UHGV virus genome: UHGV-0114356
Length of the DNA: 23,414 nt
Direction: 5' to 3' (one strand)
Source of the DNA: a virus
The translations under genes and the position numbers were made by a program. This document shows, piece after piece, positions 13,633 to 23,405 of this stretch. The notes below the pieces were generated by a model that was given only the letters and a program-made list of their open reading frames with translations, made no database searches and had not been told where the DNA came from. Positions within the stretch are counted from its first letter, which is position 1, and the number at the start of each line of letters is the position of its first letter.

Positions 13633-13986
13633 TTACGCCCTCAGTTGGATGTTGTAGGAAATCAGCACATCGGCAGGCTTAACCGGATTCGGCTGCACCA
13701 CGCGCCATTTTTTGCCGTCGATTTCGATGCGGTCATCGATGCGCACTTCCGTCTCGAAAGTGGCCGCCAGCTTCTTGTCGCCGGTGGCGATCAGGGAACC
13801 GTCGATTTCGCGGGAGGAGTATTCGGTGATAACACCGGTTACGGTCGCGGTAATGGCCGGGGTGGTGACCTCTTTGCCGAACTGGTCACGGATGGTGCCG
13901 CCGCCGCGGGTAAGCTGATATGCCTTCCCGTTCTCGGTCAGCAGTCGGGTCGCGGTCGCGCGCATGCGGCGGTAGTCGATTGGCAT
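13633..13986 (-). CDS. putative head-tail joining (neck) protein
   Basis: 117 aa, same size and relative position as lambda FII; no motif recognised. Confidence 0.35.
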   Translation of the reverse strand: MPIDYRRMRATATRLLTENGKAYQLTRGGGTIRDQFGKEVTTPAITATVTGVITEYSSREIDGSLIATGDKKLAATFETEVRIDDRIEIDGKKWRVVQPNPVKPADVLISYNIQLRA

Positions 13987-13987
13987 G

Positions 13988-14470
13988 TCACCCCCTTTCG
14001 ATGCGGATCTGATTGCCGCCCACCACTAGCCCACGCAGCGAGGAATAGAACCAGGGGAATGACGGCGAGGCCTTATTGGTTCCCGGCTCGTACTGCACGG
14101 TCACCGCGCCCTCTACGCGCTCCATCGTCACCGCCCCGCCACCAGCAACCGAAGGCGTGAGGTCAATCTCCTGCGATTCGATAGCCAGGCGACATTGAGC
14201 ATCAACCACGCGCTGTGGAATAGCATCGTCCGGAAGGTCAACGCCATCGAAGCGTAAGCCCGAGCGCGGCCACGACAGCGGCTGTGATGCGCTGGAACGC
14301 TGGCCACGCCATGTTTTGCCTTCCAGAAAGTCCATCGCCTGCATCAGCATCTGGCTGCATTCGCCATCTTCAGCAGGGATGGTGTATCCGCGCCCCGCAG
14401 CGAACGCGCGCAGATCACCAACGCTGGCATAGCTGTTGAAGTCAGACGAATGGGGATCGGCATTAATCAT
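13988..14470 (-). CDS. putative head-tail connector/adaptor protein
   Basis: 160 aa; N-terminal YASVGDLRAFAAGRGY...W...LSWPRSG pattern recalls phage head-tail connector families; position after the capsid gene cluster. Confidence 0.4.
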   Translation of the reverse strand: MINADPHSSDFNSYASVGDLRAFAAGRGYTIPAEDGECSQMLMQAMDFLEGKTWRGQRSSASQPLSWPRSGLRFDGVDLPDDAIPQRVVDAQCRLAIESQEIDLTPSVAGGGAVTMERVEGAVTVQYEPGTNKASPSFPWFYSSLRGLVVGGNQIRIERG

Positions 14471-20303: not shown

Positions 20304-21875
20304 TTAGATCCGTAGGTTGGTGACTTTGCCGACTTTCTTCGGCGGTGAATGCAGGACGGCATATCTAGTGCCATCCCAGTCGTGATCTTCCTGCTGAGTG
20401 TCTACGTCATCAGGGTTCTTACTGTCGCGAACGAGCACCGGAACACGGCTTATCCAGCCGCGGCAATAGTCGAAGACGTAGAATGCTGGTTTCTCAGGTA
20501 CACCAGATTCCAGCTTCTTACCCTCAAGGACGGCCTCCAGCATGTCAGCAAAGAGGGCCGCTCCGTTTACGCGCGATCCCGGTTTCTTGTTGGATGGAAC
20601 CCACTTAACGCCCTGCGATTCCATCTTCTGGGCAATAGAGAGCTCGTCATCGCCAGTGTTGTAGATGGCACCGTCAGCTGGGCCCGGCACAACCTTTTTG
20701 CAGATACCGGGCATGATGTTCAGTTGCCCCTGAGTTATCCCATTGAGTTTTATCTCTTCAGGTTCAGGCAGCTCTTCGCCCATCAGTCGCTTATCAATCC
20801 AGGCCACACCCTTGGCGACGTTTGTCGAGCTCATATTGAGCCCTTTGTTCAGCTCGTCAGGTGGACAGCCATACCACTCGCCAATCAGGATCAGCGACCC
20901 GGCAGGCGGGCAGAACTGGCGACCATCAGGCAGTTCTGCGGCAGTACCGTCGGCTCGCGCCCACCAGAGGTTAGAGAACGGCTTCGACTCACCCCAGTCA
21001 TGGGAACGGTCAACCGTCCAGCTATCCGGGATGCGGAACGGCTTAATGACGTGCAGCGATGCATTCCACAGGTGGTCAAAGCGCCCACCGCTGGTGACAT
21101 CCCAGGAGCCCTCTACCCAAGCTTTGCGGCGGTTCGGGTCTTTGATGGCCATCAGCGTTGCGATGTACTGGGGATCCAGATACGGGTTCTCTTTGAACGA
21201 GCCGTGAATAGCCACGCGCGTCAGCGTCACATCCTCTTCGCGCTCAGTTTGCGGGTTAAACACCTGCTGCGTTTCACGAATGATGGTGCCGCGGGGCGCT
21301 GGCTCGATGAAGCGTTTCTTCACCCAGGTGTGGCCGATGCCAAACGGGTTAGTGGTGCTGAACGTCTCCAGGGGAATAGGCTTAAGTAACGAACCGTCAC
21401 CCAGCGGGTAATTCTCAGGCCGGAACGAGGAGCGCCGGCAAGAGAACATCATCTCGTAGAATTCAGGGGACTGCTGCTTGGTCAGCTCGTTAAAGCCGAT
21501 GAACGGAAACTCCTGGCCGTGATAGTCCCAGTAGTCACCCTCTTCTTTCCCGAAGCGGAACAGCAGCTCCTCTCCAGTCGGCCACACCCAGCGCAGTTCA
21601 GATGCTGACGCCAGATAGCGTGCGCCGTCGTTAAACAGGCGATACATGCGCTTTGACTGGGTAATGATATCGGTGAGGTTCTTATACTCGGTATCGAAAA
21701 TGACACCGCGCCAGAACGAACCATAGCCCAGACCAACCAGACGACGAAAGCGCGCCAGCTGCGCGGCAGTTTTACCCGGCCCGCGCGTGCCCTCGTAGAG
21801 AATTTCGTTACATGGACAGCTCAGGGAGAGCGATTGCGATCCCGGCAAGGGTTTCCAGACGGCTTTGTAATTCAT
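20304..21875 (-). CDS. terL: terminase large subunit
   Basis: Walker A-like P-loop YEGTRGPGKTAAQ near the N-terminus and acidic nuclease-type C-terminal half; start ATG 21873-21875 overlaps the TerS stop (ATGA), giving MNYKAVWKPLPG... Confidence 0.9.
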   Translation of the reverse strand: MNYKAVWKPLPGSQSLSLSCPCNEILYEGTRGPGKTAAQLARFRRLVGLGYGSFWRGVIFDTEYKNLTDIITQSKRMYRLFNDGARYLASASELRWVWPTGEELLFRFGKEEGDYWDYHGQEFPFIGFNELTKQQSPEFYEMMFSCRRSSFRPENYPLGDGSLLKPIPLETFSTTNPFGIGHTWVKKRFIEPAPRGTIIRETQQVFNPQTEREEDVTLTRVAIHGSFKENPYLDPQYIATLMAIKDPNRRKAWVEGSWDVTSGGRFDHLWNASLHVIKPFRIPDSWTVDRSHDWGESKPFSNLWWARADGTAAELPDGRQFCPPAGSLILIGEWYGCPPDELNKGLNMSSTNVAKGVAWIDKRLMGEELPEPEEIKLNGITQGQLNIMPGICKKVVPGPADGAIYNTGDDELSIAQKMESQGVKWVPSNKKPGSRVNGAALFADMLEAVLEGKKLESGVPEKPAFYVFDYCRGWISRVPVLVRDSKNPDDVDTQQEDHDWDGTRYAVLHSPPKKVGKVTNLRI

Positions 21876-22360
21876 CCACCAAGAACCTCGCTCTGCTGCT
21901 TCTGCGCTGCTGCTTCCCACTCATTCACGTTATCGCAGGATGGGACCGGCATAACGTTATGAGTGGCAACCACTGTTTGCTCTACTTTTTGTTTGTTCGT
22001 GTAAGCATCGCCAACTTCCTTGGCCGCCTGCTCCATCAGGGCGGCAGTAAGGGCCATGTTTTTCATTCCCTCTGCTTTCGTAGCCATCCTGTCGAGTACA
22101 CGCAGCCGATATGCCTTATTGGCGATCGGGATATCGGAAATTTCATTCTGGAAGCGTTCGCGAGTTGCGTTGAAAAGTTCGACCCACTTTTTTGCGAGCG
22201 TCTTACCGCTGGCCTTCGTAGGGTCGTGAGATTCGGCCTGTTGTCGGGTTATATTGATCCCGAATTCTTTTTGGACAGCCTCGACCACCTGCGATGGCGT
22301 GTCATAACACGCAAGCGACTGAATGATGAAGGCTTTCACATCAGGTTTTAATGCAGCCAT
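21872..22360 (-). CDS. terS: putative terminase small subunit (DUF2280-like)
   Basis: 162 aa, translationally coupled to terL; N-terminus MAALKPDVKAFIIQSLACYDTPSQVVEAVQKEF resembles the DUF2280-type small-terminase candidates found next to large terminases. Confidence 0.6.
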   Translation of the reverse strand: MAALKPDVKAFIIQSLACYDTPSQVVEAVQKEFGINITRQQAESHDPTKASGKTLAKKWVELFNATRERFQNEISDIPIANKAYRLRVLDRMATKAEGMKNMALTAALMEQAAKEVGDAYTNKQKVEQTVVATHNVMPVPSCDNVNEWEAAAQKQQSEVLGG

Positions 22361-22391
22361 AAATCACCATTCGTCTTATACAGTCCAGTAT

Positions 22392-23030
22392 TTAAGCCAG
22401 TTTCAGCATGCACGTCCCGCATGCTCTGGCGATGTTAAGTTTTGCCACCTCTGCAGGTTGATTGGCTGCGTCCACCAGCTCTTGCACGTCAGTGCTCGCC
22501 CCGTATCGACGTACTACACCGACAAACTCTTCGACATCGTGGCCGCGCAATGTGAGAACTGGCTGCCCGGTCTCTTTGTTGAACTTAGGTGCGCCGAAAT
22601 CATCGGTGGCCTGGGCAATGTGGTAAAGCTCATGCTCTACCAGGGCGCAGAATTCAAGGTCGCTGCATTGTGAGCAGTAGTCGGCTGCCAGCGTGATGAT
22701 GAACTTCGGGATGCGCCCGAACCATTCATACATCTGCTGTTCCATTCTGGCTTTCTGCCAACCACCTGCGCGGAGCATTACCTGTTCGGCCTGTCCGAGA
22801 ACGTAGCGCCCTTTCTTCGCGAATGAGTCAGAAGCCCACATAAAACACAAATCAGCTTCCATTAAATGGGCGTGGTCTGGGTTATGGATGCTTCCGCTAT
22901 CGCTGAGGATTTGATGGCTTATCCAGTCATGCACTTCATTGGCGGGAATCAATCTGGTGTAGGGCTGCCAGTTATCAGGGCCAATGAAATTAACTGGTGG
23001 AAGTGGCCTGCGCTCGTCTTCGTTCACCAT
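22392..23030 (-). CDS. HExxH-motif protein (putative phage metallopeptidase-like), 212 aa
   Basis: ATG 23028-23030 with AGGAT RBS; contains LVEHELYHIAQ (HExxH) and several Cys (CSQCSDLEFC, ARACGTC). Family assignment is tentative. Confidence 0.55.
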   Translation of the reverse strand: MVNEDERRPLPPVNFIGPDNWQPYTRLIPANEVHDWISHQILSDSGSIHNPDHAHLMEADLCFMWASDSFAKKGRYVLGQAEQVMLRAGGWQKARMEQQMYEWFGRIPKFIITLAADYCSQCSDLEFCALVEHELYHIAQATDDFGAPKFNKETGQPVLTLRGHDVEEFVGVVRRYGASTDVQELVDAANQPAEVAKLNIARACGTCMLKLA

Positions 23031-23033
23031 GAG

Positions 23034-23405
23034 TTAATCCTGTTTTATATACGGCAAAAATGCCGAAAACATTCTGTCGAGCAGATAGCAGTAGGTTTCG
23101 TTTGCGTCTTCCGGCTTGGTCGTTACGCCCACATCAGAGCAGACGTAAAAACATACGTGAGCGCATTCGTGAACGAGAGTTGATATCTGCTGATCGAATA
23201 CTCCAATCAGGTAAACTCGCTCTCCCGTATCGGTGTTTTCATAGTTGTTTGCCAGTCCACAGTTGAATGGCCTTTCCTCTCCGCTACCACCAAGGAATTT
23301 ATCAGCGTGCTGAAACTGTTCTCTGGTTGTTGCGAGGTAGACATGCGCACTTTGAAACAGCGGAATGGTGAATGCCGGAAGTCTGTGCCATTTGGCTTTT
23401 GCCAT
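23034..23405 (-). CDS. small HExxH-motif protein (123 aa as listed; 5' end may lie beyond the window)
   Basis: Contains TLVHECAHVCFYV (HExxH); the frame is open to the window edge, so the true start is uncertain; stop is 3 nt before the next gene's start. Confidence 0.45.
   Translation of the reverse strand: MAKAKWHRLPAFTIPLFQSAHVYLATTREQFQHADKFLGGSGEERPFNCGLANNYENTDTGERVYLIGVFDQQISTLVHECAHVCFYVCSDVGVTTKPEDANETYCYLLDRMFSAFLPYIKQD

What the first reader, a model, noticed from the sequence alone, without database searches (positions are those of the whole stretch)
22392..23405. Two adjacent HExxH-motif genes immediately upstream of the terminase genes
The two ORFs directly upstream of terS each contain an HExxH motif (HECAH and HELYH) but are not obviously similar to each other. 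They are separated by 3 nt, so they are probably co-translated. This position, between the lysis region and the packaging genes, is a common moron site in lambdoid phages. Paired zinc-metallopeptidase-like proteins here are not part of the canonical packaging or head module; they could be a processing protease pair or a defence/anti-defence module. Function is not determinable from sequence.
Basis: partly seen in the sequence, partly recalled or inferred. Interest (0 to 1): 0.45.

Follow-up and report, generated by a model that had tools for sequence, protein, structure and literature searches.

The report
Two unrelated zincin genes before terminase
Two neighbouring prophage genes each carry a strictly conserved zinc-protease motif, but they are unrelated and inherited independently: the larger one almost always accompanies one type of DNA-packaging gene, the smaller one is a free-moving accessory gene, and neither has a known target.

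Summary
Two minus-strand genes, orfA (23405..23034, 123 aa, HECAH) and orfB (23030..22392, 212 aa, HELYH), lie 3 nt apart directly upstream of terS and terL. HExxH is expected 0.07 times in the window's 26 products and occurs only in these two. It is invariant in both families.

They are not a pair. Profile comparison finds no relationship beyond the motif. Only 19 of 80 orfA loci carry orfB, and only 1 of 251 orfB loci carries orfA.

orfB is Pfam PF18894. It has a DUF2280-type small terminase gene downstream in about 94% of the 251 loci, across several bacterial phyla and at least four unrelated terL types. In one near-identical phage, orfB, the spacer and the DUF2280 domain are replaced together by a different terS N-terminal part.

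orfA (phrog_1365) gives a confident minimal zincin-like model (HExxH-x19-E). It sits in front of at least five terS types. Relatives occur in N4-like and T7-like phages and as an unannotated ORF in P22 immI.

Both belong to catalogued but uncharacterised families. The best reading is two independent Zn-peptidase-like genes, with orfB an accessory of the DUF2280 packaging-recognition cassette. Substrates are unknown.

The parts
23034..23405 (-). orfA: 123-aa small zincin-like protein (phrog_1365 family)
   Evidence: ORF. phrog_1365 E 4e-36. AF2 model pLDDT 88, pTM 0.83, with four strands plus an HExxH helix (74-91) plus a helix 103-120. 30 BFVD matches at E<=1e-3, all small phage proteins, a few named SprT-like, PolyVal metallopeptidase or IrrE.
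23157..23171 (-). HECAH motif of orfA (H79-E80-C81-A82-H83)
   Evidence: One search gives the coordinates. H79, E80 and H83 are invariant in alignment A4, which spans P22-like, lambdoid, N4-like and T7-like phages.
23097..23099 (-). E103 of orfA, candidate third zinc ligand (HExxH-x19-E; 'ANETYCY' motif)
   Evidence: E103 and Y107 are invariant in A1 and A4. E103 lies at the start of the helix that follows the HExxH helix in the model. The ligand role is inferred from gluzincin spacing, not measured.
22392..23030 (-). orfB: 212-aa PF18894 'putative phage metallopeptidase'
   Evidence: Pfam PF18894 E 5.3e-43, 146.8 bits against a cut-off of 23.7. phrog_513 E 5e-101. 3664 homologues and 1093 clusters at 50% identity.
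22620..22634 (-). HELYH motif of orfB (H133-E134-L135-Y136-H137)
   Evidence: H133 and E134 are invariant and H137 is kept in >=90% of 127 diverse members.
22530..22541 (-). H164-D165-V166-E167 of orfB, candidate third-ligand segment
   Evidence: H164 98%, D165 93%, E167 95% conserved. The ligand role is inferred.
22866..22874 (-). H53-A54-H55 of orfB (conserved HxH)
   Evidence: H53 96% and H55 95% conserved. Together with C204/C207 this may form a second, structural metal site (inference only).
22410..22421 (-). C204-G205-T206-C207 of orfB (conserved C-terminal CGxC)
   Evidence: C204 97%, G205 96%, C207 89% conserved.
22361..22391 (-). 31-nt orfB-terS spacer with two phased words (ACTGGAC at 22389..22383, ATAAGAC at 22379..22373; the second copy is degenerate in this window)
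   Evidence: In relatives, two copies of a lineage-specific word lie 10-11 nt apart at a fixed distance from the terS start.
21872..22360 (-). terS-like gene; residues 1-103 are the DUF2280 domain (22360..22052)
   Evidence: Pfam PF10045 E 2.5e-51. Weak phrog_5334 'terminase small subunit' match in the C-terminal part.
20304..21875 (-). terL (probable start ATG 21875, in an ATGA overlap with the terS stop)
   Evidence: phrog_2 terminase large subunit E 3e-27. The start follows the E. coli H6 annotation and the sequence.
21966..23026 (-). Cassette (orfB + spacer + first ~130 codons of terS) replaced as one block in the near-identical IMG/VR locus L007
   Evidence: blastn: flanks are 96% and 92% identical, and the cassette is replaced by 553 bp encoding the N-terminal part of a 216-aa terS whose N-terminus gives a marginal HTH_psq match.

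Best explanation
Two unrelated small genes of the zinc-metallopeptidase (zincin) type have been placed side by side by phage mosaicism. They are not a two-gene system.

orfB (PF18894) belongs to the DNA-recognition half of a DUF2280-type terminase module. It is inherited together with the spacer and the DUF2280 domain of terS, whichever terL follows. I infer that it is a soluble Zn-dependent endopeptidase acting at packaging initiation. My best guess is that it cuts terS itself or a protein bound to the DNA to be packaged.

orfA is a 123-aa minimal gluzincin-like protein (HExxH-x19-E). It is a mobile accessory gene in the orientation of the late genes. It sits just upstream of whatever terS a phage has, and elsewhere in other phages. 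It most likely cleaves a host or phage protein unconnected with orfB.

Shown: the motifs and their conservation, the orfA fold prediction, the independent distribution of the two genes, the orfB-DUF2280 linkage, and the cassette swap.

Inferred: zinc binding, peptidase activity, and any substrate.
For: Motif and conservation.

orfA fold: AF2 pLDDT 88 with a beta sheet, an HExxH helix and a helix carrying E103. BFVD matches are all small phage proteins, some annotated SprT-like, PolyVal metallopeptidase or IrrE.

orfB: PF18894 at E 5e-43. A published HHpred run on a homologue 51% identical to orfB gave P. abyssi metallopeptidase 4JIU_A at probability 93.7 (PMC12860723 Table S7; identity).

Independence: 19 of 80 orfA loci carry orfB, and 1 of 251 orfB loci carries orfA. 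In E. coli complete genomes, only 10 of 70 matching records extend into orfA.

orfA precedes Terminase_2, P22 GP3, Sf6-type, a 216-aa terS with a marginal HTH_psq match, and DUF2280 terS genes.

orfB-DUF2280 linkage: DUF2280 lies within 100 nt downstream in 80/80 close loci and 77/91 distant IMG/VR loci, with 8 more further away. In GTDB genomes of several phyla the figure is 75/80. Counts of isolated phages per genus are the same for the two genes for nine of the ten genera that are listed in both outputs (Klebsiella 8 vs 9).

The unit precedes at least 4 unrelated terL clusters. orfB identity tracks the terS N-domain (Spearman 0.83) more than the terS C-tail (0.55). Pairs with orfB >=75% identical but a different terL have terS-N 71% and terS-C 27% identical. 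Cassette swap in L007.

Against: DUF2280 terS works without PF18894 in 181 Salinibacter phage records, where the upstream gene encodes a hydrophobic 172-aa protein without HExxH and with no Pfam match. Bordetella phage PHB04 has PF18894 away from any DUF2280 gene. So orfB is not a universal requirement of this terS type.

Conserved linkage could reflect co-inheritance for a reason other than packaging. An HExxH motif alone does not prove peptidase activity.
Confidence: 0.5

Rival explanations
1. One reading: the two HExxH proteins form a functional pair, either a processing-protease pair or a two-gene defence/anti-defence module inserted as a moron.
For: The genes are 3 nt apart with a shared SD arrangement. 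The adjacency recurs in 19 IMG/VR loci with two divergent orfA alleles, about 93-100% and about 60% identical.
Against: Only 1 of 251 orfB-centred loci has any orfA-family gene within about 4 kb. 61 of 80 orfA loci lack orfB. Upstream neighbours of orfB fall into 73 clusters. There is no convincing PADLOC hit.
Confidence: 0.04
2. orfB is a host-directed or anti-defence protease that merely travels with DUF2280 terS. For example, it might destroy a host sensor that recognises this terminase type, or it may simply never have been separated from terS. It would have no role in packaging itself.
For: DUF2280 terS exists without orfB in Salinibacter phages. L007 packages with the same terL and no orfB. 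In 30 of 80 bacterial genomes unrelated DNA lies between orfB and terS. The literature treats it as an accessory gene (PMC12860723).
Against: Linkage survives divergence to about 35-45% identity, several phyla, at least four terL families and insertions between the two genes. Free-moving accessory genes such as orfA do not behave this way.
Confidence: 0.25
3. One or both proteins are not peptidases. The HExxH-centred metal site would instead serve another role, for example a DNA-end or nuclease helper comparable to the HNH partner of HK97-type terminases, a DNA-binding assembly factor, or another hydrolase.
For: 36 of the 128 diverse orfB relatives examined are at least 245 aa long through an N-terminal extension. 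Pfam finds weak HTH matches (HTH_Tnp_1, HTH_8, MerR and others) in roughly 15-20 of the 127 aligned members. orfB also has extra conserved HxH and CGxC motifs. orfA gives a weak local match to an HExxH-type peptide hydroxylase model (E 0.006, below its cut-off).
Against: The full zincin signature is conserved in both families: HExxH with an invariant Glu, plus a downstream acidic or His residue. orfA's predicted topology fits a zincin. Published HHpred links a homologue of orfB to a minigluzincin. Acinetobacter phages carry an HNH gene in addition to orfB, so orfB does not replace HNH.
Confidence: 0.15

Closest known systems
Pfam PF18894 PhageMetallopep (= PHROG 513)
   Same: orfB scores 146.8 bits over the whole model and carries the family's HExxH motif.
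   Different: The family has no experimentally known function. The PHROG label 'transposase' appears to be a propagated annotation; the HTH-extended relatives are one possible source, which I did not check. The linkage to DUF2280 terS shown here is not mentioned in the papers I could find.
Minigluzincins (proabylysin 4JIU, projannalysin) and thermolysin-type gluzincins
   Same: orfA has a small soluble alpha/beta domain with HExxH on one helix and an invariant Glu 20 residues after the second His on the next helix. From my own knowledge, thermolysin has H146 and E166 at the same spacing, preceded by Asn as in orfA's 'NE'. A published HHpred run on a homologue of orfB hit 4JIU_A at probability 93.7.
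SprT / Wss1 / Spartan DNA-dependent metalloproteases (PF10263)
   Same: They are small zincins that act on DNA-bound proteins. Some relatives of both genes are annotated 'SprT-like'. Some orfB relatives carry an HTH-like extension.
   Different: The Pfam scores are below threshold: orfA 13.6 bits against 25.6, and orfB-family best E 0.012. The SprT third-ligand pattern HExxHx5H is absent from both sequences.
HNH endonuclease partner of HK97-type terminases (gp74; from my own knowledge)
   Same: It is a small metal-motif protein encoded directly upstream of terS and inherited with the terminase genes. This is the nearest positional analogue for orfB.
   Different: orfB has no HNH motif. Acinetobacter phages carry an HNH gene as well as orfB. 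No nuclease evidence exists.
ImmA/IrrE (M78) metalloproteases paired with HTH proteins
   Same: HExxH followed by a conserved acidic residue about 27-30 residues later. They associate with HTH domains. One BFVD neighbour of orfA is named IrrE.
   Different: Neither protein hits PF06114. There is no repressor-type partner gene. The genes lie among late packaging genes, not in an immunity region.

Membership tests
Pfam PF18894 PhageMetallopep (orfB) | Whole-protein HMM score above the gathering threshold | tested here: met
   146.8 bits against 23.7, E 5.3e-43, model positions 2-134 of 134.
Pfam PF18894 PhageMetallopep (orfB) | Conserved HExxH motif | tested here: met
   H133 and E134 invariant, H137 >=90% in 127 diverse members. 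All 128 examined members carry an HExxH motif.
Zincin / gluzincin metallopeptidase fold (orfA) | HExxH on an alpha-helix preceded by a beta sheet | tested here: met
   AF2 model pLDDT 88: strands 11-13, 21-25, 50-56 and 63-69, with helix 74-91 holding H79-H83. This is a prediction only.
Zincin / gluzincin metallopeptidase fold (orfA) | Third zinc ligand Glu on the following helix | tested here: inconclusive
   E103 is invariant and sits at the start of helix 103-120, 20 residues after H83.
Zincin / gluzincin metallopeptidase fold (orfA and orfB) | Zinc binding and peptidase activity | not testable with these tools
   Needs purified protein.
Zincin fold (orfB) | Structural similarity to a solved zincin | tested here: inconclusive
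   The AF2 model is unusable (pLDDT 52). There are no PDB sequence hits. The only link is a published HHpred hit to 4JIU_A (93.7%) for a homologue 51% identical.
SprT-like (PF10263) | HMM score above threshold and the HExxHx5H pattern | tested here: not met
   orfA scores 13.6 bits against 25.6. orfB-family best E is 0.012 in 7 of 127 members. Neither has a His six residues after the second His.
ImmA/IrrE peptidase M78 | Pfam match and an adjacent HTH repressor substrate | tested here: not met
   No M78 hit at E<=1. The neighbours are terS and variable small ORFs.
Two-gene module (pair of HExxH genes) | Consistent co-occurrence and adjacency across genomes | tested here: not met
   19 of 80 orfA loci have orfB, and 1 of 251 orfB loci has orfA.
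Known anti-phage defence systems (PADLOC) | Match to a defence-system protein model | tested here: not met
   orfA has no hit. orfB has only a 14-bit local match to an unrelated model.
Terminase module component (orfB with DUF2280 terS) | Conserved linkage with terS independent of the rest of the genome | tested here: met
   Linkage in 80/80, 85/91 and 75/80 loci. At least four terL clusters follow the unit. orfB co-varies with the terS N-domain. Cassette swap in L007. Exceptions: Salinibacter phages and Bordetella PHB04.
Terminase module component (orfB with DUF2280 terS) | Requirement for DNA packaging | not testable with these tools
   Needs genetics.

The most novel reading that the evidence does not exclude
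PF18894 proteins are an unrecognised third component of DUF2280-type terminases. They would be DNA-tethered zinc peptidases, some with their own HTH, needed to start packaging. They might do this by processing terS or by clearing bound proteins from the packaging site. The phased tandem words glued to the terS start would mark that site.
Probability: 0.2. Interest if true: 0.6.

Novelty: new member of a known kind. Interest (0 to 1): 0.38.

Why it matters
Both genes belong to large families that are annotated only as 'hypothetical', 'putative metallopeptidase' or, wrongly, 'transposase'. orfB's family has at least 1093 clusters at 50% identity. orfA's relatives reach P22, N4-like and T7-like phages.

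PF18894 turns out to be inherited as one cassette with the DNA-recognition domain of a widespread but unstudied small terminase type (DUF2280). This converts a vague 'moron' into a concrete question that can be tested with a single point mutant: does this terminase type need a zinc peptidase partner?

If it does, that would add a new kind of accessory factor to phage DNA packaging, alongside the HNH proteins. If it does not, the pair remains an ordinary example of mosaic juxtaposition.

Tried and rejected
- **orfB structure.** AF2 from 121 close homologues gave pLDDT 52.
- **PDB sequence and profile searches.** Searches with single sequences and with profiles A1, A2 and A3 found nothing.
- **Relationship between the two families.** hhalign gave 0.5-1.3% probability, so a paralogue idea was rejected.
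- **PADLOC and NCBIfam.** Nothing meaningful.
- **A conserved upstream partner of orfB.** None exists: 73 clusters among 170 neighbours.
- **Small upstream ORFs versus the HTH extensions.** I tested whether the small ORFs upstream of orfB correspond to the HTH extensions of long family members. There were no hits.
- **Apparent long orfB forms in fetched loci.** These were over-extended ORF calls in GC-rich DNA. The genomic context of true HTH-fused forms therefore remains untested.
- **The 150-780 nt inserts between orfB and terS.** They hold no conserved gene.
- **Alignment A5.** It was too divergent for a genome scan; A6 was used instead.
- **Literature.** Searches for PF18894, DUF2280, 'putative phage metallopeptidase', hkcC and SprT-like plus terminase found no functional study.

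Full report
**1. What is in the sequence**

The last 1.6 kb of the window holds four minus-strand genes in a row:
- orfA, 23405..23034, 123 aa
- orfB, 23030..22392, 212 aa
- a 162-aa DUF2280 protein, 22360..21872
- terL

orfA ends in TAA. Three bases later the orfB ATG follows, and an AGGA lies 7 nt upstream of that ATG inside the last orfA codons. HECAH is encoded at 23171..23157 and HELYH at 22634..22620.

From the composition of the 26 minus-strand products (7254 aa), 0.07 HExxH motifs are expected in total. Two are found, both here.

The lysis genes lie beyond the window end. A contig with a 100% identical orfA reads NinG, Q, holin, lysozyme, Rz, a 66-aa ORF, orfA, orfB, terS. A 91% identical E. 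coli prophage has the same layout, followed by portal, scaffold and a P22-type capsid gene.

**2. What the two proteins are**

*orfB* matches Pfam PF18894 'putative phage metallopeptidase' over the whole model (E 5e-43). It also matches PHROG 513, which is labelled 'transposase'.
- The family is large: 3664 homologues and 1093 clusters at 50% identity.
- In 127 members of 33-55% identity, H133 and E134 are invariant. H137, H53, H55, H164, D165, E167, C204 and G205 are kept in at least 90%, and C207 in 89%.
- 36 of the 128 diverse members examined are at least 245 aa long through an N-terminal extension. Pfam finds weak HTH_Tnp_1, Fis-type or MerR-type matches in roughly 15-20 of the 127 aligned members. 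These HTH-like extensions are one possible origin of the 'transposase' label, but I did not check that.
- The AF2 model from close homologues failed (pLDDT 52). No solved structure is detectable by sequence.
- The only structural lead is published. HHpred on a Burkholderia phage homologue, 51% identical to orfB, hit the P. abyssi metallopeptidase 4JIU_A at probability 93.7 (PMC12860723, Table S7). From my own knowledge, 4JIU is the minigluzincin proabylysin.

*orfA* matches only PHROG 1365, of unknown function, plus a sub-threshold SprT-like hit.
- Its AF2 model is confident (pLDDT 88, pTM 0.83). It has four strands, a helix 74-91 carrying HECAH, and a helix 103-120.
- Foldseek against BFVD finds 30 matches at E<=1e-3. 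All are small phage proteins. A few are named SprT-like, PolyVal metallopeptidase, IrrE or metalloprotease.
- PDB searches give nothing above noise.
- An alignment of relatives from ST64T, P22, mEp044, N4-like KP8 and phCDa, and T7-like RSB3 keeps H79, E80, H83, E103 and Y107 invariant down to 27% identity.
- The pattern HExxH-x19-E preceded by Asn matches the thermolysin-type gluzincin arrangement (my own knowledge). I read orfA as a minimal gluzincin-like protein, with zinc binding and activity untested.

The two families are unrelated beyond the motif. Neither convincingly matches a PADLOC defence model.

**3. They are not a pair**

- Of 80 IMG/VR loci centred on orfA, 19 have orfB next door, 18 of them with the same 3-nt junction. 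The other 61 do not.
- In those 61, orfA is followed directly, or after one small gene, by other small-terminase types: Terminase_2, P22 GP3, Sf6-type, and a 216-aa terS with a marginal HTH_psq match.
- Of 251 loci centred on orfB (80 close and 91 distant from IMG/VR, 80 from GTDB genomes), one has an orfA-family gene within about 4 kb.
- Upstream neighbours of orfB fall into 73 unrelated clusters among 170 loci.
- In E. coli complete genomes, 70 records match the region but only 10 extend into orfA.
- orfA relatives also occur away from terS. One is an intact but unannotated 125-aa ORF between sieA and orf59a/mnt in P22 immI. Others are in N4-like and T7-like lytic phages.

**4. orfB belongs with the DUF2280 small terminase**

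- A DUF2280-like ORF lies within 100 nt downstream of orfB in 80/80 close loci and 77/91 distant IMG/VR loci, and further away in 8 more.
- The same order is found in Pseudomonas JBD44, Acinetobacter Ab105-2phi and Vibrio XM1.
- It is found in 75/80 bacterial genomes, mostly Alpha- and Betaproteobacteria but also Acidobacteria, Chloroflexota and Armatimonadota.
- Among isolated phages, the per-genus counts for the two genes agree for nine of the ten genera that are listed in both outputs (Acinetobacter 62, Pseudomonas 44, Vibrio 8, Burkholderia 7 and so on; Klebsiella 8 vs 9).
- The unit precedes at least four terL clusters that are unrelated at E<1e-10.
- orfB identity tracks the terS N-domain (Spearman 0.83) better than the terS C-tail (0.55). 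Pairs with orfB at least 75% identical but a different terL type keep 71% identity in terS-N and only 27% in terS-C.
- A natural swap shows the same boundary. IMG/VR locus L007 is 96% and 92% identical to the window on either side. It replaces window 23026..21966 (orfB, the spacer and about 130 codons of terS) with 553 bp encoding the N-terminal part of a 216-aa terS with a marginal HTH_psq match.

So the inherited unit is orfB plus the spacer plus the DUF2280 domain. The terS tail and terL form a separate unit.

The linkage is not absolute. 181 Salinibacter phage records have DUF2280 terS with a hydrophobic 172-aa protein upstream that has no HExxH and no Pfam match. Bordetella phage PHB04 has a short PF18894 gene that is not next to DUF2280.

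**5. A cis element seen on the way**

The spacer before the DUF2280 start holds two copies of a 5-8 nt word, 10-11 nt apart, at a fixed distance from the ATG. The word differs between lineages but both copies change together. Examples are TATGAC/TATGAC, CTGGAC/CTGGAC, TTTATAC/TTTATAC and CCTTGACG/CCTTGACG.
- 31 of 63 unique spacers have an exact repeat of at least 5 nt at period 8-13. Shuffles give 4.6 on average, with a maximum of 11.
- Where 150-780 nt of unrelated DNA separates orfB from terS, the element stays attached to terS.
- GAC-N7/8-GAC occurs in 85 of 175 unique 40-nt upstream segments, against 2% of random windows. TGAC-N6/7-TGAC occurs in 59 of 175, against 0.1%.
- In this window the second copy is degenerate: ACTGGAC at 22389..22383 and ATAAGAC at 22379..22373.

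The element therefore belongs to terS, not to orfB. I infer a protein-binding site (a terS site, a packaging site or a translational operator). From my own knowledge, the lambda cosB sites upstream of Nu1 are a loose precedent. None of this was tested.

**6. Mechanism, with degrees of belief**

| Claim | Probability |
|---|---|
| The two genes are independent | about 0.9 |
| Both encode folded proteins with an intact zincin-type metal site | about 0.8 (orfA), about 0.7 (orfB) |
| orfB is functionally tied to the DUF2280 recognition half of the terminase | about 0.6 |
| orfB acts as a peptidase at packaging initiation, on terS or on DNA-bound proteins | about 0.2-0.25 |

The main rival for orfB is a host-directed or anti-defence protease that simply co-travels with this terS type (about 0.25). 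A non-peptidase metal protein is also possible (about 0.15). For orfA I can only say that it is a mobile, probably late-expressed minimal zincin with an unknown target.

**7. Novelty and verdict**

Both proteins are members of catalogued but uncharacterised families, and the literature I could search treats PF18894 as an accessory gene of unknown role. The genes themselves are ordinary new members.

What is new here is comparative. The 'pair' dissolves. PF18894 turns out to be a cassette partner of DUF2280 terS, with a phased tandem element at the terS start. This is moderately interesting and directly testable.

Noticed in passing
window 22361-22391 (words at 22383-22389 and 22373-22379); e.g. 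L137, L122, L138, L163, L285, L337 just upstream of terS: Directly upstream of DUF2280 terS genes lie two copies of a lineage-specific 5-8 nt word, 10-11 nt apart, at a fixed distance from the start codon. The core is GAC-N7/8-GAC, and TGAC-N6/7-TGAC in many lineages. Both copies co-vary. The element stays with terS when DNA is inserted between orfB and terS. It is enriched about 25-fold (GAC form) and far more (TGAC form) over random windows. It may be a terS or packaging-site binding element, or a translational operator.
   Followed up: partly
window 21966-23026 versus L007 4380-4932: A near-identical IMG/VR phage replaces orfB, the spacer and the first ~130 codons of terS by the N-terminal part of a 216-aa terS with a marginal HTH_psq match. 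It keeps orfA on one side and the terS C-tail plus terL on the other. This is a natural domain swap with a breakpoint inside terS.
   Followed up: yes
L257 2489-2866 (+) = Salmonella phage P22 NC_002371 about 13849-14226: P22 has an intact but unannotated 125-aa ORF of the orfA family (HECAH and ANETYCY conserved). It lies between sieA and orf59a/mnt in the immI region, in the direction of the late operon. HK620 annotates its counterpart as hkcC. A second, partial orfA-like match lies elsewhere in a differently numbered P22 record (AF217253, 37516-37692).
   Followed up: partly
P0249-P0390 (long members of the orfB family): 36 of the 128 diverse PF18894 representatives examined are at least 245 aa long through an N-terminal extension, and a subset gives weak Pfam HTH matches (HTH_Tnp_1, Fis-type, MerR-type). 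This may be the origin of the 'transposase' label of PHROG 513, though I did not check that. None of these forms was present in the loci I fetched, so their genomic context is unknown.
   Followed up: partly
L265-L341 between the PF18894 gene and terS: In 30 of 80 bacterial genomes, 150-780 nt lie between the PF18894 gene and terS. The inserts are not conserved, and several look as if they hold an opposite-strand ORF, though reverse-strand ORFs were not called. The orfB/terS junction may therefore be a further insertion site for accessory genes.
   Followed up: partly
L163 3562-4029; Acinetobacter phage records: In many Acinetobacter phages an HNH or Vsr-like endonuclease gene overlaps the start of the PF18894 gene, giving the order HNH, PF18894, DUF2280, terL.
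   Followed up: no
L258 2890-3294 (ST64T gp50) and L021, L033, L037, L070: A 134-204 aa protein family (motif SQYGELLYMSKTAFEA; annotated 'head decoration protein' in ST64T; no Pfam hit) often lies between orfA and terS.
   Followed up: no
window 21872-21920: The mechanical ORF list starts terL at GTG 21920, overlapping terS by 49 nt. The likely true start is ATG 21875, in an ATGA overlap with the terS stop codon, as annotated in the E. coli H6 prophage.
   Followed up: partly
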